Of a DNA stretch of 64,000 nt, positions 5,067-62,359 are shown piece after piece (position 1 is the first letter of the stretch; each line of letters opens with the position of its first letter). Source of the DNA: Tubiluchus corallicola (Eukaryota; Animalia; Priapulida); contig JAQGDQ010000838.1 in NCBI GenBank assembly GCA_030141605.1, positions 1 to 64,000 of the forward strand. Reading direction: 5' to 3'. A program made the position numbers and the translations under genes. The notes beneath the pieces were generated by a model. The model made no database searches. It was not told where the DNA came from and was given only the letters and a program-made list of their open reading frames with translations.

Positions 5067-5246
5067 AACTGTAGTAGACATGAGCGACTAAGAAACACTC
5101 TTTATACAGAAATTAGCTCTCTATATCCAAACTTTACTTACTTATCAGATGATGACAAACTAAAATTATTATTAGGCTCAAACGATTCTGAAATACTCCA
5201 AATTGCTTATAATTTTGTTTTAAAATGTTTCAGTTCTAAGATATAA
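5067..5246 (+). mobile_element. C-terminus of a LINE (CR1/L2-like) ORF2
   Basis: Open frame NCSRHERLRNTLYTEISSLYPNFTYLSDDDKLKLLLGSNDSEILQIAYNFVLKCFSSKI* resembles non-LTR ORF2 C-termini; its last codons are the first satellite unit. Confidence 0.65.
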
Positions 5247-7864
5247 TTACAAAAAAACGAACTATATATGTGTGATTTTGTTTTAAAATGTTTCAGTTCT
5301 AAGATATAATTACAAAAAAACGAACTATATATGTGTGATTTTGTTTCAAAATGTTTCAGTTCTAAGATATAATTACAAAAAAACGAACTATATATGTGTG
5401 ATTTTGTTTTAAAATGTTTCAGTTCTAAGATATAATTACAAAAAAACGAACTATATATGTGTGATTTTGTTTTAAAATGTTTCAGTTCTAAGATATAATT
5501 ACAAAAAAACGAACTATATATGTGTGATTTTGTTTTAAAATGTTTCAGTTCTAAGATATAATTACAAAAAAACGAACTATATATGTGTGATTTTGTTTTA
5601 AAATGTTTCAGTTCTAAGATATAATTACAAAAAAACGAACTATATATGTGTGATTTTGTTTTAAAATGTTTCAGTTCTAAGATATAATTACAAAAAAACG
5701 AACTATATATGTGTGATTTTGTTTTAAAATGTTTCAGTTCTAAGATATAATTACAAAAAAACGAACTATATATGTGTGATTTTGTTTTAAAATGTTTCAG
5801 TTCTAAGATATAATTACAAAAAAACGAACTATATTGTGTGATTTTGTTTCAAAATGTTTCAGTTCTAAGATATAATTACAAAAACGAACTATATATGTGT
5901 GATTTTGTTTTAAAATGTTTCAGTTCTAAGATATAATTACAAAAAAACGAACTATATATGTGATTTTGTTTTAAAATGTTTCAGTTCTAAGATATAATTA
6001 CAAAAAAACGAACTATATGTGTGATTTTGTTTCAAAATGTTTCAGTTCTAAGATATATTACAAAAAACGAACTATATATGTGTGATTTTGTTTTAAAATG
6101 TTTCAGTTCTAAGATATAATTACAAAAAACGAACTATATATGTGTGATTTTGTTTTAAAATGTTTCAGTTCTAAGATATAATTACAAAAAAACGAACTAT
6201 ATATGTGTGATTTTGTTTCAAAATGTTTCAGTTCTAAGATATAATTACAAAAAAACGAACTATATATGTGTGATTTTGTTTTAAAATGTTTCAGTTCTAA
6301 GATATAATTACAAAAACGAACTATATATGTGATTTTGTTTTAAAATGTTTCAGTTCTAAGATATAATTACAAAAAAACGAACTATATATGTGTGATTTTG
6401 TTTCAAAATGTTTCAGTTCTAAGATATAATTACAAAAAAACGAACTATATATGTGTGATTTTGTTTTAAAATGTTTCAGTTCTAAGATATAATTACAAAA
6501 AACGAACTATGTGTGATTTTGTTTTAAAATGTTTCAGTTCTAAGATATAATTACAAAAAACGAACTATATATGTGTGATTTTGTTTTAAAATGTTTCAGT
6601 TCTAAGATATAATTACAAAAACGAACTATATATGGATTTGTTTTAAAATGTTTCAGTTCTAAGATATAATTACAAAACGAACTATATATGTGTGATTTTG
6701 TTTTAAAATGTTTCAATTCTAAGATATAATTACAAAAAAACGAACTATATATGTGTGATTTTGTTTTAAAATGTTTCAGTTCTAAGATATAATTACAAAA
6801 AAACGAACTATATATGTGTGATTTTGTTTTAAAATGTTTCAGTTCTAAGATATAATTACAAAAAACGAACTATATATGTGTGATTTTGTTTTAAATGTTT
6901 CAGTTCTAAGATATAATTACAAAAACGAACTATATATGTGTGATGTTTTAAAATGTTTCAGTTCTAAGATATAATTACAAAAAAACGAACTATATATGTG
7001 ATTTTGTTTCAAAATGTTTCAGTTCTAAGATATAATTACAAAAAACGAACTATATATGTGTGATTTTGTTTTAAAATGTTTCAGTTCTAAGATATAATTA
7101 CAAAAACGAACTATATATGTGTGATTTTGTTTTAAAATGTTTCAGTTCTAAGATATAATTACAAAAAACGAACTATATATGTGTGATTTTGTTTTAAAAT
7201 GTTTCAGTTCTAAGATATAATTACAAAAAAACGAACTATATATGTGTGATTTTGTTTTAAAATGTTTCAGTTCTAAGATATAATTACAAAAAAACGAACT
7301 ATATATGTGTGATTTTGTTTTAAAATGTTTCAGTTCTAGGATATAATTACAAAAAAAAACGAACTATATATGTGTGATTTTGTTTCAAAATGTTTCAGTT
7401 CTAAGATATAATTACAAAAAAACGAACTATATATGTGTGATTTTGTTTTAAAATGTTTCAGTTCTAAGATATAATTACAAAAAAACGAACTATATATGTG
7501 TGATTTTGTTTTAAAATGTTTCAGTTCTAAGATATAATTACAAAAAAACGAACTATATATGTGTGATTTTGTTTCAAAATGTTTCAGTTCTAAGATATAA
7601 TTACAAAAAAACGAACTATATATGTGTGATTTTGTTTTAAAATGTTTCAGTTCTAGGATATAATTACAAAAAACGAACTATATATGTGTGATTTTGTTTC
7701 AAAATGTTTCAGTTCTAAGATATAATTACAAAAAAACGAACTATATATGTGTGATTTTGTTTCAAAATGTTTCAGTTCTAAGATATAATTACAAAAAAAC
7801 GAACTATATATGTGTGATTTTGTTTTAAAATGTTTCAGTTTTGGATGTAATTACAAAAAAACCC
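5212..7864. repeat. 63-bp tandem satellite array (~42 units)
   Basis: Same unit as 1-425, highly homogeneous with homopolymer-length variants. Confidence 0.97.
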
Positions 7865-40499: not shown

Positions 40500-41090
40500 T
40501 AAAACCGGATCCATCTTAAACTGCAGGTCAAAACAATCTACTTTTTAAAATATTGAAAGGGAACTTACTTTTTTTCAAAAATGACTTACGTGAAAGAATT
40601 ATTACCACACACACAATTTCACGTTCGCGCCACTAGTTCTTCGCTGTTACATGCATTTCGCCATTTTCTAGTTAGACGGGCACTAGCGTCTGCATTTCGG
40701 AAACGCATTGCACAAAAAACAGGTGATGTACCTTCCAGTTCATATGTGTTAGTTTGTGACAAACAGCGTGAGTACAGCGGTAAATTTTAAATTTGAATTT
40801 TTATCTTAAAACTTGCCTAGTTTTAGTACAACAAATTGAATATCTTACACTAGCACTGTACTTCAATTTTCGCTTATGCAAACACGTGCAAAACGCTCGT
40901 GGAATACTTTTGCTATTGAAAATTATGTTAGTTTGTGATGTCATCGATACTTGGGCTCGCGCGCCGTTAATTAAGTTCTTAATCTATTATTTAATTATCC
41001 GAAAGCTTTTGCAGTATTAACTGTGTTAAAATGTATACTTTTATCGGATTTGAAAATAGGTTAGTATATGAAAAATCATTCTGTCTTCCT
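40500..41090. mobile_element. Kolobok-like non-autonomous element, copy 3
   Basis: Homologous to 29610-30227. Confidence 0.7.
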
Positions 41091-41516: not shown

Positions 41517-41604
<88 letters not shown>

Positions 41605-41635
41605 CAGTAGCAGTAGTAGCAGTAGCAGTAGCAGC

Positions 41636-41689
<54 letters not shown>
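41517..41689. repeat. (CAG)n-(TAG)n trinucleotide repeat, tail of the adjacent minus-strand LINE
   Basis: On the minus strand it follows aataaagatttt directly. Confidence 0.95.
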
Positions 41690-41690
<1 letters not shown>

Positions 41691-42095
41691 AAATCTTTAT
41701 TTGTCATTTTAAAAACATTGACCATCATAATAAAAGACAGACAATCAGTGTTAGTTCATATAAAAACATACACTGTTCTGAGCAAATGCGTCTGGTGCAA
41801 GCTAAACTATAAGTGCAACTAGAAATTCAAAAATAAAATATAAACTAGTTTAGTAAGGTCTAGGAAAAATAAAATTATGATATGAGTAAGTATCATCGTG
41901 TTCGTGTGTCGGATATTCAAAACAAGTCATTAAATGTTTTTTAATTAAGACTTGAATATTGATAAAGAGCTGCTGTGTTTTAGTGATGTCGGTAATGAAT
42001 TCCAGAGTTGTATTGCTTGCTTAGTAATGGAATTCTTTCCATATTGATGGTTCGAAATTTGTTTCTTCAATTGCATGGCTTTTTGTTTTAATTAT
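41690..42095 (-). mobile_element. LINE 3' end fragment
   Basis: Minus strand YGKNSITKQAIQLWNSLPTSLKHSSSLSIFKS (WNSLP motif). Confidence 0.75.
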
Positions 42096-42302
42096 TTAGA
42101 TTTTCATTGATTCAAAATTTAAACTATTTAAAGAGAATAAATTATCGTGTGGATGAATCAATAATCTTTTTTGTTGTTTTCTTTCAGTGGTATCTGATGT
42201 ACAATCTGCGCAAAACGTTGTTCTGGGAATTATTTGCATTGTTTGCGGGAATTTAGCTTGCCAAAATTGTACTGGACAGTGTACACTAGGCATCTCTTAA
42301 CA

Positions 42303-44015
42303 ATGGCCATGATACCAGCAAATGTAGTGAACACGCCGAACTACGTGGTACAAGAAATGGCTGTACAAAATATGGCGACCGTGCAGCAAAAGCAAGACAG
42401 ACACCTAGCGGGAGATATAACAACTAAGAAACTGGCATTTGCTGCAGCGATCACTCAAACGGTTTTTGGTTTGATTTTTCTGCTTTTGCAAGTTATTGTG
42501 GTTTCTGTGACCTGTCGTGGTTGTGACGGAGCGTTGATTGGCTTATGGGCAGGCATTGTGTTTACAGTCACAGGAATTGTGGGATGTGTAGGAAGATTTA
42601 AGGACAGACCAGGAGTGTGGATAGGTTTCATGGTGTTATCTATTATTTCTGCAATAATAACATGCATAGCGTTAATTACAGCTGGTATTGTAGCAGCATT
42701 TACATCGGATCAAAACAGCACAGTTCACAATATTCACGTAACGTACGTTGCCTTTTGTGTACTAGAATTTATTACATCCCTTTTCTCAGCTGTAGTGTGC
42801 TGCAAGTTAATGTGCTGTAGAGTGACAGATTACAGCAAAAATCAAATGACAATCGTACCAGCATCAGCTACTGAACCTGGAAGAATGACAGGTGTGGTTG
42901 CCATCAATCAAGAGCAGAAGACGGAAGTTGTGTACGACCTTCCTTATGTTACACCACTTCCGCCGACGATGTCTGCAGGTCCTGCACTACCTCCTAGACC
43001 AGATGAAGTCACCGGTAACAACAAAATGCGATACAGAGAAAATCTTGCAAAAACTACTTCGGATGAAGTTGACACGAAGAGGAGCAAAATTCGCTATCTT
43101 GAAAAACTTGGGGAAGGAAGTTACAATGAAGTTTACAAAGCCATACTGCACAAAGATGCACAAGATAGAAACGTAGAAGAAAAAACAGTCATAGCCAAGT
43201 GTGCAATAAGGGGAAAACGAAATCAGTTTGTTACTGCATATCACGAAAAAGAGCTTGAGACTTTGAGAGAAATTCCTGTCCATGAAAATCTGCTGGGTAT
43301 TATCACGAAAATAAATGATGCAGACAAAGGTCAGGTGGTAATCGTTGATTATATGGAGGATGGAGACTTAAAATCGTTCCTTGTGAAGGAAGCAGAGTGT
43401 ACCGACCAGTACACAAATAGTGCTAACTTGACTGTCAGGATGGCAGTATCATTTGCTTCTGACATTGTCTCTGGACTTGAACATCTGGCTAAGCATAAAT
43501 GCTTGTGTCGTGATTTGGCCGCTAGGAGCATTCTTGTCTCTGCAGACCTTAGGTGCAAGGTCACTAAATTTGGGAAAGAAGAAGACGTTGTTAGTTATCG
43601 GTGCAGCGTGAAGAGATTACAAAAGCGTTTGCCAGTTCGCTGGATGGCACCCGAGTCTTTGCAATTTAACAAGTATTCTACAGAATCAGATGTCTGGTCA
43701 TTTGGGGTACTCTTCTGGGAAATCGTAACTCTTGGAGCTACGCCCTATCCAGAACACAAAACGGCTGGTGAGGTCGTTGAAGCCATCAGAAATGGATACC
43801 GCATGGAGTGTCCTCCGGGCTGCTCAGAGGAGTTGTATGAGCTGATCGAAGTTTGCTGGCGTGAAAGTCCCGATGACAGACCCAGCTTTCAACAACTGCG
43901 TCAGCAGTTACAGCAGATGCTGGAAGATGTCAGTGGCTACGAATCATTATCTGATTATAAGCTCATTGATGTCTATCAGGACCTCATGGCGGGTAACATT
44001 GACGAAATTGTCTGA
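42303..44015 (+). CDS. MS4A/CD20-like four-TM protein fused to a tyrosine pseudokinase with an ITAM-like tail (570 aa, intronless CDS)
   Basis: ATG in acaATGG context with a splice acceptor at 42187. Four hydrophobic helices with MS4A-like GLWAGIVF..G and E..S..SA..CC. TK motifs [35 protein letters not shown]...P..RP.F. Confidence 0.92.
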
Positions 44016-44646
44016 TTGTGTGCAAACGTTGATCAAATCATTCTGGCCCTCGAAACAAAGTGAAATGGTAGTTAAATCTTCATTAGTTGTTAAAGATTTG
44101 AAGAAATGATGATGAAATCGATTATCTACTTCCATTGTAAAGTGAGCACGCGTGTGACAAATTACTTCGACTTTCTAGTAAGCTAGCAGATCTTTTAAGA
44201 CTTGACATTGTGTGATAGTTTTAGAAATGTTGGGCTTAATTTTACTAAACTTATTTTATTACTTAAACTAAACTAGTTCAAATTTATTTTAAATACATCG
44301 CTTGACTATTCTTTGTAAGAATTGTAAATATCATTTAAACCTTTTGGTGATTTACTGTTACATTTTGTTTCGTCAAAAGCCCGTTTTATTCTGTATAGGA
44401 AAATATTTTTGTATTTTCGTGTACGTGTACACGTGCTAGATACAAACAAGTAATACATTGTTTATTGAGTACATTATACTGATTTCTACAAGCTGGCTTT
44501 TTCGTGTACAAGTCAAACAAGTAACATCACTAGAAGCAGACGAAGTTGTGTCTTCTTGTGGGTAGAGGCGTGGTCGCAGGCTGGGGAGGGAGTTTTTTTA
44601 ATCACTACCCCATACACAAACTTCTTGCTTGTCACTAGTGATACTT

Positions 44647-45937
44647 GTGATATGTGGTGTACGTGTACCACCTGTGATATAGGACGCTTTCGTTACGACA
44701 CCACAAACACTTTTTGCTACTAATTTCCGATACGTGCTGACACGTGGGTTCAGTGAATCTTTCCATTTAAGCATAGTTCACAGACATGTATTCCGAATAG
44801 AACCAAACAAAACAGTTCTTAATATTGCCGATAAATTCTGGGTTTAATGAAATAATAAGAACTAAAAAAAAAACAATCCACTCTAATCCAAAACAACAAC
44901 AAAGTTGTTATAATTACAAACAACGTTTCCAGACAACCTACGATAAACAGAAGACTAGTTAGCCCCAACCCAGGTGAGGGAGAATGATGTAAGGTAAGTA
45001 TACTTATCAGTTGTAGTGACTGCTGTCGGATTCCAACGTTTGACGATCTCCATCACTCTGGAAGCTGGAATAACGTGAGTAACCGGTTATGCGAACTTCG
45101 TGGAATCTTGAGCAGCTACTCTTCCAAAGCTTGAGCGGGGGTGGGTGGGTGTAATCTTACGTGGCCACTTCTACAATGCTTGTCAGGTGTACCGGAGTCG
45201 TAAGTGGTTACTTCTCCGATCCTAGTGGAGTGCAGTGGAGTCCTGGCCCATGGAGCTCGTAGAACTACCATTGGTACTACGTCTGGTCATCGCCTGGTTG
45301 TTTCTGCACCAGATCTCCCGAATTTCCGTTTACAGCAGTACGTCAAATAACGAATAATAGACAGTTTATTGGTGTTTTCGCCTCACGGCTCGAACACCTA
45401 ACCCTTTGGTGTGTCAGTGCCCTTTAATAACTTTCTGTCGCCACAATAATTAAGTTTTGACTTCGACTGTTAATAAATGTTCGTCGGAAGCCATATTCGA
45501 CGACTTCACTGGCCTAGCACGTTCGACACACTGTGTTGAGCCTGGTTTCAATTTCTAGGACAGGTAAAACTGGATGACCTTGTCCTTTAACACGACGGTT
45601 CATTGGCTAGATAGCCTGTTCAGTTGAGCGTATGACCAATCACTTACTTTCTTGTAAAGGAGATCTAGGACAGGTATGAGGTGGGACCCTTCCCAGAGCT
45701 AACTAGATGCATGCTCATATATGTACAGTCACAACTTGCTTTACTGTAGTAGGTAAATTCGCTTAATGAGTAATTAACTAATTACTCATTCAATTAACAT
45801 AAGTAATTAGCTAAATTAAGCTATTAATGTAGCCTAAGTATGGGATATACACAAAATCATACTAGAATACAGTTCAACTATATTAAAAGGGGTTGCAATG
45901 CTGCTCGGTAGTTCTTATATTCCAGACTGACGTCACA
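44647..45937. mobile_element. Possible solo LTR (tentative)
   Basis: GC-richer ~1.3-kb segment bounded by tgtga...tcaca; no convincing TSD found. Confidence 0.3.
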
Positions 45938-61900: not shown

Positions 61901-62359
61901 CAAATTCACACTCGTTAAAAAAAATGTGTTTTGATGAGTTCTCAATTTTTTTCTTGAAGACAAACTGTTACATAAACCAAAAAAAATGAAATTTATTATG
62001 TACTAAACAAGTTTTATTCTCCTCACACTGTTACCTCTTATTCATGATACGAAACTCTCGATGGGGTTCAATTCATGATAAGTCATAAAATAGAAGGTAA
62101 GAGAATATAAAACTACCAAATTATTTAAACATTACATAACAATCTAATATTTCACAATTTGCTATTTTACTTACGCCCAGAAATCTTCTACAGTATCAAA
62201 TGACGTGATATCGCAAAGGTTTTCCTCCCACTGCTTGGACTTGTCATTTTTAAAGAACCACAGTGTCCAGGCATTCTGTAATGGATGCTTTATGAGTAAT
62301 TCTGGGCTAATTTCAACTTCTTTGCTGACTACTGCCTTCTGTTCTGACGATTCTTTGTC
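52906..62359 (-). CDS. eIF4E: Eukaryotic translation initiation factor 4E, class I (5' coding exon not found in window)
   Basis: Exons 62175-62359 (KHPLQNAWTLWFFKNDKSKQWEENL..TVEDFW), 61788-61851 or 61625-61688, 58026-58139 (GIKPMWEDEKNRNGGRW), 56215-56354 (LLCLVGEAFD..VCGAVINIRTKGDKLAMWT), 54053-54107, 52906-52965 (KSGSTAKNRFTC*). All are GT-AG and phase-compatible. Confidence 0.97.
53082..53612. mobile_element. Foldback-like element with ~70-bp imperfect inverted ends and internal ~60-bp tandem repeats
   Basis: acaactttattaaaacttttaatttacatagttaaaa..catgtcaaa is inverted as tttgacatg..ttttaactatgtaaattaagagttttaataaagttgt. Confidence 0.7.
54053..54107 (-). CDS. eIF4E: eIF4E exon
   Basis: RKLKERLSIPPKVQIGFQ, 55 nt. 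Confidence 0.93.
55215..56034. mobile_element. hAT-like MITE with subterminal ~23-bp repeats
   Basis: 25-bp TIR cagggatgtcaccgaaacgaaattt (22/25 match); imperfect 8-bp TSD ctcagtac/cccagaac; tandem ttcggtttgccatgtttggtaaat at 55826-56005. Confidence 0.75.
56215..56354 (-). CDS. eIF4E: eIF4E exon
   Basis: LLCLVGEAFDEHSENVCGAVINIRTKGDKLAMWTADARNSEATMKIG. Confidence 0.96.
58026..58139 (-). CDS. eIF4E: eIF4E exon
   Basis: QGIKPMWEDEKNRNGGRWLINLNKQQRYSDLDNFWMET, 114 nt. Confidence 0.96.
58222..58834. mobile_element. Tc1/mariner-pogo type MITE
   Basis: TA-cagtgttccctcacttatcgc ... gcgatgtagcgaggaaacactg-TA. Confidence 0.8.
59117..59495. mobile_element. TA-target MITE family, copy 1
   Basis: cactcat..tcggtttgcc / ggcaaaccgagatgagtg; homologous to 60986-61298. 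Confidence 0.7.
60986..61298. mobile_element. TA-target MITE family, copy 2
   Basis: TA-cactcatatctcggt ... accgagatatgagtg-TA. Confidence 0.8.
61625..61688 (-). CDS. eIF4E: eIF4E alternative 64-nt exon, variant A
   Basis: cag|A..AAG|gtaag; LYNHIEVASRLQSGCDYSLFK. Confidence 0.92.
61788..61851 (-). CDS. eIF4E: eIF4E alternative 64-nt exon, variant B
   Basis: tag|G..AAG|gtgag; LYNHVLSPTHLPHGCDYSLFK. Confidence 0.88.
62175..62359 (-). CDS. eIF4E: eIF4E exon
   Basis: DKESSEQKAVVSKEVEISPELLIKHPLQNAWTLWFFKNDKSKQWEENLCDITSFDTVEDFW. Confidence 0.96.

What the first reader, a model, noticed from the sequence alone, without database searches (positions are those of the whole stretch)
43923..43985. 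C-terminal ITAM-like motif with a third internal tyrosine, echoing FceRI-beta (MS4A2)
Seen: [21 protein letters not shown] fits YxxL-x8-YxxL with acidic residues upstream and an extra Tyr 6 residues after the first. Known: the ITAM consensus is YxxL/I-x6-8-YxxL/I and recruits Syk/ZAP70/Shark tandem SH2 domains; the ITAM of the MS4A member FceRI-beta also has a non-canonical middle Tyr at +6. Inference: this could be an invertebrate immunoreceptor-like module that signals by recruiting Src/Syk rather than by its own catalysis.
Basis: partly seen in the sequence, partly recalled or inferred. Interest (0 to 1): 0.75.

Follow-up and report, generated by a model that had tools for sequence, protein, structure and literature searches.

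The report
MS4A-like receptor fused to dead kinase
The three-tyrosine motif is real but sits where related receptor kinases carry the same tail tyrosines and is not kept in two priapulid-worm counterparts, so it is likely an inherited kinase tail; the unusual thing is the protein, a CD20-like four-pass membrane domain fused to a predicted inactive kinase that likely acts as a docking scaffold.

Summary
The motif YESL-x8-YQDL with a middle Tyr at +6 is in the sequence. It ends a 570-aa single-coding-exon gene (42303-44015) joining an MS4A/CD20-like four-helix domain to a tyrosine kinase domain that lacks the DFG Asp and catalytic-loop Asn. Two Priapulus proteins with the same fusion keep only the first Tyr (0 of 2 ITAMs). 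The kinase falls among Cad96Ca/Stitcher-like receptor kinases. Their tails carry the same first YxxL, a second Tyr usually 11 residues on, and Phe/Leu/Ile at +6; 8 of 17 match the ITAM pattern. Human Tie2 has Tyr at 0 and +6 in register, and the first Tyr matches the FGFR1 Y766 position. One extra copy in read data lacks the first Leu. What the three fusions do share are a juxtamembrane E-x-x-(Y/C)-(D/E)-x-P-Y plus P-x-L-P-x-R box, a kinase-insert YxN and the activation-segment Tyr. Best reading: an MS4A-pseudokinase scaffold, likely phosphorylated in trans. The motif is ordinary; I did not find the fusion described.

The parts
42161..42187 (+). Pyrimidine tract and AG: likely splice acceptor of a 5'-UTR intron; the coding exon would begin at 42188
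   Evidence: Sequence; an in-frame TGA at 42195-42197 lies after the acceptor, so no upstream coding exon joins in frame here. No RNA test.
42197..42256 (+). Out-of-frame upstream ORF of 19 codons in the presumed 5' UTR
   Evidence: function untested
42303..44015 (+). Uninterrupted coding sequence, 570 aa: MS4A-like four-helix domain, linker, tyrosine pseudokinase domain, 30-residue tail
   Evidence: same architecture in P0002 and P0103
42405..42833 (+). Four membrane helices, MS4A/CD20-like bundle (residues 35-177)
   Evidence: Hydropathy; model pLDDT 90.5; profile hits FceRI-beta E 9e-16 and CD20 E 4e-10; fold match 8k7t_B Z 17.0, rmsd 2.3, 136 aligned, tied with two dystrophin-glycoprotein-complex chains
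42924..42998 (+). Juxtamembrane box E-x-x-(Y/C)-(D/E)-x-P-Y ... P-x-L-P-x-R (residues 208-232): likely SH2/SH3 docking site
   Evidence: 8 of 25 positions identical in the 3 fusions, against 12 of 90 in the whole linker; Y215 invariant. Binding is inferred.
43092..43910 (+). Tyrosine kinase domain of the Cad96Ca/Stitcher-like group, predicted pseudokinase
   Evidence: Pfam PF07714 E 4e-68; tree; motif table
43410..43418 (+). Kinase-insert Y370-x-N, a Grb2/Drk SH2-type consensus (consensus recalled)
   Evidence: Y and N kept in 3 of 3 fusions
43506..43529 (+). Degenerate catalytic loop: Cys for His before RD, Ser for the metal-binding Asn
   Evidence: Ser in 3 of 3 fusions, Asn in 17 of 17 relatives
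43566..43574 (+). KFG in place of DFG
   Evidence: K, N, N in the 3 fusions; DFG in 17 of 17 relatives
43938..43949 (+). First tail YxxL (Y546-L549), at the FGFR1 Y766 position; the only tail Tyr kept in all fusions
43956..43958 (+). Middle Tyr552 (+6): hydrophobic position of the family tail
   Evidence: F 8, L 4, I 1 in the 13 relatives that have the first YxxL-type site; Tyr in Tie2; T and S in the Priapulus fusions
43974..43985 (+). Second tail YxxL (Y558-L561), matching the second family tail Tyr
   Evidence: Column at least 90% conserved in alignment A1 as reported; S and V in the Priapulus fusions

Best explanation
The motif lies at the positions of the two tail tyrosines of Cad96Ca/Stitcher-like receptor kinases and was likely inherited with the kinase domain, on a protein that fuses an MS4A/CD20-like four-helix membrane domain to a predicted inactive tyrosine kinase and likely works as a docking scaffold phosphorylated by another kinase. 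Shown: the architecture, its recurrence in two Priapulus proteins, the shared loss of the DFG Asp, catalytic Asn and third G-loop Gly, and the register of the tail tyrosines. Inferred: N- and C-termini face the cytoplasm as in MS4A proteins. The bundle clusters, or joins a partner receptor, in the membrane. An active Src-family or Cad96Ca-like kinase then phosphorylates the kept tyrosines (Y215, Y370, Y432, Y546), which recruit single-SH2/SH3 proteins of the Grb2/Drk, Src or PLC-gamma type. Tail Tyr2 and Tyr3 are dispensable at family level.
For: Orthologs: P0002 and P0103 (Priapulus caudatus) share the fusion and form one side of a branch with the window kinase (100/99). They keep 1 of 16 motif positions and only Y546. 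Donor tail: the first Tyr is 28 residues after the CW in all 3 fusions and 26-28 in 13 of 17 relatives; a second Tyr follows at +11 in 12 of those 13; 8 of 17 match the ITAM pattern. Tie2 aligns without gaps with Tyr at 0 and +6. FGFR1's tail Tyr aligns with the same column through P0007, and Y766 is the PLC-gamma site (PMC4899036, passages). In the model the tail superposes on Tie2 (2oo8, model 12-272 to chain 850-1114, Z 28.9, rmsd 2.5, 237 aligned). Only 1 of 78 hits to the N-terminal half has the ITAM pattern. A contig in runs X1 and X2 (one sample) lacks three bases that remove L549. Stitcher recruits Src42a to its intracellular domain (PMC4876545, passages).
Against: Only three full-length fusion proteins are in hand and two come from one species, so the loss of Tyr2/Tyr3 in Priapulus may be a single event. 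A second gene copy in the same organism keeps all three Tyr and the ITAM pattern (L561I), although four random replacements would miss all three Tyr 57% of the time. The window tail is ITAM-shaped, with a spacer inside the consensus. The beta-3 Lys (2 of 3 fusions), alpha-C Glu and catalytic Asp are kept, so residual activity is not excluded. No binding or phosphorylation was tested. The 17 relatives include near-duplicates and are not independent.
Confidence: 0.7

Rival explanations
1. The tail is a working ITAM. The Cad96Ca/Stitcher-type tail was already ITAM-shaped, and after the kinase lost activity this lineage kept it to recruit Syk/Shark after Src phosphorylation, as Draper does.
For: Pattern met with an x8 spacer; kept in copy B with L561I. 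The donor tail has an 11-residue Tyr spacing in 12 of 13 relatives. Invertebrate Src42A-ITAM-Shark signalling exists (PMC4503800 and PMC6219719, passages). The second half of the tail is low-confidence in the model, so possibly flexible.
Against: 0 of 2 Priapulus orthologs keep it. One copy or allele lacks L549. The spacer is 12 here and 11 in the family. The first YxxL follows the kinase C-lobe as in Tie2 and FGFR1. The closest active relative (Lingula P0003/P0033) has no first Tyr.
Confidence: 0.12
2. The kinase is an atypical but active enzyme that autophosphorylates its own tail and insert tyrosines when the tetraspan domain clusters.
For: The kinase domain is the best-kept part (106 of 278 positions identical in 3 fusions). 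Catalytic Asp and alpha-C Glu are kept in 3 of 3, beta-3 Lys in 2 of 3, and the activation-segment Tyr432 is invariant.
Against: Both metal-binding residues (DFG Asp, catalytic-loop Asn) and the third G-loop Gly are lost in 3 of 3; the DFG Asp position varies (K, N, N) and P0103 has Arg for the beta-3 Lys.
Confidence: 0.08
3. The tail beyond the first YxxL is a drifting remnant with only a structural or terminal role (packing on the C-lobe, and a terminal E-x-hydrophobic end), and none of its tyrosines signals.
For: The tail is poorly kept (4 of 30 positions). In copy B, 4 of 6 listed changes inside the motif alter residues, against 0 of 4 in the helix before it. Copy C1 has an in-frame gap. 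The terminal Glu is at least 90% conserved (E568).
Against: Y546 is invariant in the fusions and sits at a known SH2 docking position in FGFR1. The numbers of changes are small, and differences near contig ends were not listed (10 of 19 shown for copy B).
Confidence: 0.1

Closest known systems
Cad96Ca/Stitcher-like receptor tyrosine kinases (RET/FGFR/Tie-related; nearest: Lingula XP_023933531.1 and XP_013382122.1)
   Same: Kinase domain groups with them (94/99; with Lingula 98/98); same tail register, kinase-insert YxN and terminal E-x-hydrophobic end.
   Different: They have intact HRD-N and DFG motifs (17 of 17), and those inspected have a single membrane span; here there is a four-pass MS4A-like domain and degenerate catalytic motifs.
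Priapulus caudatus XP_014662088.1 (P0002) and XP_014667023.1 (P0103), auto-named 'Ret-like'
   Same: Same MS4A-like plus kinase fusion, same catalytic losses, same juxtamembrane box; kinase 43-45% identical.
   Different: No ITAM pattern: only the first tail Tyr is kept.
FceRI-beta (MS4A2) and CD20 (MS4A1)
   Same: Four-helix MS4A fold and profile match; three tyrosines near the C-terminus with the middle one at +6.
   Different: In FceRI-beta the Tyr are at 0, +6, +10; Y219 binds Lyn and Y225 SHIP-1 (PMC3353146). Here they are at 0, +6, +12, about 370 residues after the last helix and behind a kinase domain.
Receptor pseudokinases PTK7/Otk, RYK, ROR, ErbB3, EphB6/EphA10 (recalled, no call)
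   Same: Membrane protein with a catalytically impaired tyrosine kinase fold that signals through partners and trans-phosphorylated tyrosines.
   Different: Those are single-pass receptors with large ectodomains; this one has four spans and short outer loops.
Drosophila Draper-Src42A-Shark ITAM pathway
   Same: Invertebrate YxxI/L-x6-12-YxxI/L motif (PMC6219719).
   Different: Draper's ITAM is shown to be necessary and sufficient for Shark recruitment. Here binding is untested and the motif is not conserved.

Membership tests
ITAM | Two YxxL/I separated by 6-8 (up to 12) residues | tested here: met
   x8 spacer; consensus from PMC3353146 and PMC6219719
ITAM | Acidic residue three before the first Tyr (Reth consensus, recalled) | tested here: not met
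   -3 is Val; Glu and Asp are at -5 and -4; that Asp is Ala in copy B
ITAM | Both YxxL/I conserved in orthologs | tested here: not met
   0 of 2 Priapulus fusions; kept in copy B, broken in C1
ITAM | Lies in a free, unstructured tail open to tandem SH2 domains | tested here: inconclusive
   Model block 261-270 (holds Y546-Y552) has mean pLDDT 69 and superposes on the Tie2 tail; 273-279 is under 50
ITAM | Src-phosphorylated and bound by Syk/ZAP70/Shark tandem SH2 | not testable with these tools
   Needs phosphopeptide binding; no genome was held in which to look for Syk or Shark
FceRI-beta-type MS4A with three-Tyr ITAM | MS4A/CD20-like four-helix domain | tested here: met
   Profile hits FceRI-beta and CD20 first; P0002 passes the Pfam CD20 cut-off (48.6 vs 27.9) while the window fragment falls just under it (25.9); fold tie among FceRI-beta and two dystrophin-complex chains
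FceRI-beta-type MS4A with three-Tyr ITAM | Tyr at 0, +6, +10 | tested here: not met
   0, +6, +12
FceRI-beta-type MS4A with three-Tyr ITAM | Motif belongs to the MS4A protein's own C-tail | tested here: not met
   It follows the kinase and aligns with receptor-kinase tails; 1 of 78 hits to the N-terminal half has the pattern
Cad96Ca/Stitcher-like RTK | Kinase domain groups with the family | tested here: met
   (35 rows, midpoint root, no one-clade test; no fly Cad96Ca or human RET/Tie/FGFR rows)
Cad96Ca/Stitcher-like RTK | Two-tyrosine tail with hydrophobic +6 | tested here: met
   the spacing is 12 here and 11 in 12 of 13 relatives
Cad96Ca/Stitcher-like RTK | Single membrane span with ectodomain, and intact catalytic motifs | tested here: not met
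   Four spans; CRD...S and KFG
Tyrosine pseudokinase | Loss of one or more of VAIK Lys, HRD Asp, DFG Asp | tested here: met
   DFG Asp lost in 3 of 3, and the catalytic Asn too
Tyrosine pseudokinase | No measurable phosphotransfer | not testable with these tools
   Needs a biochemical assay

The most novel reading that the evidence does not exclude
An invertebrate lineage built a one-chain immunoreceptor or chemoreceptor by fusing an MS4A bundle to a dead Cad96Ca-type kinase whose tail is a cryptic ITAM. The Cad96Ca/Stitcher tail (YxxL-x7-YxxL/I in 8 of 17 relatives) would then be an unrecognised Shark/Syk docking site, and this protein a convergent counterpart of FceRI-beta.
Probability: 0.12. 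Interest if true: 0.75.

Novelty: new variant of a known kind. Interest (0 to 1): 0.4.

Why it matters
The motif itself is a caution: receptor-kinase tails of this group often match the ITAM pattern, so the pattern alone does not mark an immunoreceptor. The fusion matters more. The receptor pseudokinases I recall are single-pass. A four-pass MS4A-like domain wired to a tyrosine pseudokinase, shared with a priapulid and present in several copies here, would give invertebrate MS4A-like proteins a direct signalling output. A 2010 survey concluded that invertebrates lack MS4A-like genes (PMC2826416, passages), while the profile built here from mostly unnamed hits, those named being invertebrate, finds FceRI-beta and CD20 first. 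It also makes one question testable: whether Stitcher-type tails bind Shark.

Tried and rejected
No whole genome is held, so Syk/Shark genes, paralog loci and synteny could not be checked, and the animal's lineage was not determined. A word-index search with the four-helix region found nothing. The word-index searches with the full protein and with alignment A2 found only P0002 and missed the known ortholog P0103, so absence of further fusions is not shown. The representative search used only the first 266 residues; 1 of its 78 hits has a kinase domain, and its top hit P0036 is a repeat protein that I rejected as spurious. The metagenome scan gave 18 loci matching kinase parts only, none in the four-helix region; they were not followed up. 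No RNA holder listed; the one guessed RNA run did not cover the gene; no verdict on expression. Run X4 laid no contig on the tail. The ESM Atlas did not answer, so look-alikes by features or structure are unchecked. Foldseek gave no match at E 0.001 for the four-helix model; FceRI-beta ranked first at E 0.004. The primary Stitcher docking-site paper (Tsarouhas 2014) is not held, so which Stitcher tyrosines bind Src42A or Drk is unverified; I recall a tail tyrosine binding both. Searches for Tie2 tail residues (0 papers) and Stit/Drk docking (0 papers) were empty. Retention of three Tyr in copy B was rejected as evidence of selection (P 0.57). No paralog lies in the window. Earlier-findings look-ups returned nothing. 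No complex prediction was run. No supplements were read.

Full report
Observation. The stretch 43923-43985 reads [21 protein letters not shown] on the + strand. It is the end of one open frame, 42198-44015. An acceptor-like pyrimidine tract ends at 42187 and an in-frame stop follows at 42195-42197, so translation likely starts at ATG 42303 and gives 570 aa from a single coding exon. The pattern YxxL-x8-YxxL with Tyr at +6 is there. It arises in 1.6% of shuffles of the tail and 3.9% of shuffles of the protein; 23 matches lie outside one simple repeat in the six frames of the window.

The protein. Residues 35-177 form four membrane helices. A profile of 73 sequences (the window domain, two fusions and 70 of the other 76 hits with a match in this region) finds FceRI-beta (E 9e-16) and CD20 (E 4e-10) first among solved structures, and 64 of the 73 match Pfam CD20 at E 0.001. 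The model matches FceRI-beta (8k7t_B, Z 17.0, rmsd 2.3, 136 aligned), tied with two dystrophin-glycoprotein-complex chains that I take from recall to be sarcospan. So the domain is MS4A/CD20-like, but closeness to MS4A2 in particular is not shown. Residues 264-536 are a tyrosine kinase domain.

Orthologs. Two Priapulus caudatus proteins have the same fusion: P0002 and P0103. In a 35-row kinase tree the three lie on one side of a branch (100/99), next to a Lingula Cad96Ca-like kinase (98/98), inside a group of Cad96Ca-like kinases from arthropods, a tardigrade, amphioxus, scallops and an annelid (94/99). I left P0008, P0010, P0021 and P0032-P0035 out; the root is a midpoint and no one-clade test was run. 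All three fusions have lost the DFG Asp (K, N, N), the catalytic-loop Asn (Ser) and the third G-loop Gly, whereas 17 of 17 relatives keep HRD-N and DFG. The kinase is still the best-kept region (106 of 278 positions), as expected of a maintained pseudokinase fold; inactivity is a prediction.

Test 1, conservation. The two orthologs keep 1 of 16 motif positions, Y546; Y552 is T and S, Y558 is S and V. Contigs of runs X1-X3 (one sample) show further copies. Copy B matches up to the stop codon and then goes on in unrelated sequence, so it is likely a separate gene; it keeps three Tyr, with D542A, K553M, L554F and L561I. That is weak evidence, since four random replacements miss all three Tyr 57% of the time. 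A half-depth contig (C1, in X1 and X2) lacks three bases and so L549, which breaks the first YxxL. These come from assembled contigs, not reads.

Test 2, donor tail. The first Tyr lies 28 residues after the conserved CW in the fusions, and 26-28 in 13 of 17 active relatives. In 12 of those 13 a second Tyr follows at +11, and the +6 residue is Phe (8), Leu (4) or Ile (1). Eight of 17 match YxxL/I-x6-8-YxxL/I (alignment). The 17 include near-duplicates. Human Tie2 aligns ungapped through the tail with Tyr at 0 and +6, and FGFR1's tail Tyr aligns with the first-Tyr column through P0007; Y766 is FGFR1's PLC-gamma site (PMC4899036, passages). The model of residues 284-570 (it lacks the first two strands) places the first half of the tail along the Tie2 tail. 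The middle Tyr therefore needs only a Phe-to-Tyr type change at an existing hydrophobic position, and the likeness to FceRI-beta (0, +6, +10; PMC3353146, passages) is likely coincidental.

What is kept instead. Tyrosines identical in all three fusions are Y215, Y350, Y370, Y432, Y458, Y482, Y512 and Y546. Y215 lies in a juxtamembrane box followed by P-x-L-P-x-R (8 of 25 positions identical, against 12 of 90 for the linker); Y370 is a YxN in the kinase insert; Y432 is in the activation segment. From recalled SH2/SH3 consensus sequences these are likely Grb2/Drk- and Src-type docking sites.

Mechanism. Most likely (0.7) the protein is a membrane scaffold: the MS4A-like bundle sets clustering or partner choice, an active Src-family or Cad96Ca-like kinase phosphorylates it in trans, and single-SH2/SH3 adaptors bind. 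Stitcher recruits Src42a to its intracellular domain (PMC4876545, passages). All steps after the architecture are inferred. Rivals are a working ITAM (0.12), an atypical active kinase (0.08) and a non-signalling remnant tail (0.10). The ITAM rival is not excluded, because the donor tail is itself ITAM-shaped and invertebrate Src42A-ITAM-Shark signalling exists (PMC4503800 and PMC6219719, passages).

Novelty. The motif is ordinary. The fusion is in RefSeq only under an automatic 'Ret-like' name. Searches for MS4A with invertebrate, tyrosine kinase domain, CD20 and evolution (25 of 32 listed), Priapulus with pseudokinase (3 of 3) and MS4A with pseudokinase (20 of 60) showed no title or abstract start describing it. 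I saw those as listings only, apart from passages of PMC2826416, which concluded that invertebrates lack MS4A-like genes. The library misses most subscription journals. Expression is untested, no genome was held, and the lineage of the window's animal was not determined.

Verdict. Observation confirmed; ITAM/FceRI-beta interpretation not supported, recruitment-based signalling plausible. Interest 0.4, carried by the fusion rather than by the motif.

Noticed in passing
P0004, P0005, P0007, P0010, P0011, P0012, P0014, P0015 (C-terminal tails): Active Cad96Ca/Stitcher-like kinases from arthropods, amphioxus and a scallop-like record have tails matching YxxL-x7-YxxL/I, the textbook ITAM spacing. 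Whether they bind Shark/Syk is worth testing.
   Followed up: partly
window 42760-44047, runs X1-X4: Raised depth and divergent contigs (36 differences in 325 bases; 44 in 405) point to at least three copies of the gene in this organism. One X1 contig shows a one-base loss at 42965 with a one-base gain after 42967.
   Followed up: partly
window 62174-62359 (-): Exon of an eIF4E gene (Pfam IF4E, E 4.5e-11).
   Followed up: no
window 5210-5848 (-) and 6543-6869 (-): Short matches to the AIDA C2 domain (E 3e-5 and 1e-5), likely exons of an AIDA gene.
   Followed up: no
window 40513-41090, 41700-42050 and 44600-45500: High-copy interspersed repeats flank the gene (summed contig depth up to 2.5 million against about 250 in the gene); a (CAG)n-(TAG)n microsatellite lies at 41517-41690.
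   Followed up: no
P0037-P0113: A large set of standalone CD20-like proteins (those named come from Ptychodera, Tubulanus and Ciona), many with PPxY-type motifs in proline-rich tails; P0040 and P0100 carry two tandem four-helix units.
   Followed up: partly
window 42197-42256 (+): A 19-codon out-of-frame upstream ORF in the presumed 5' UTR.
   Followed up: no
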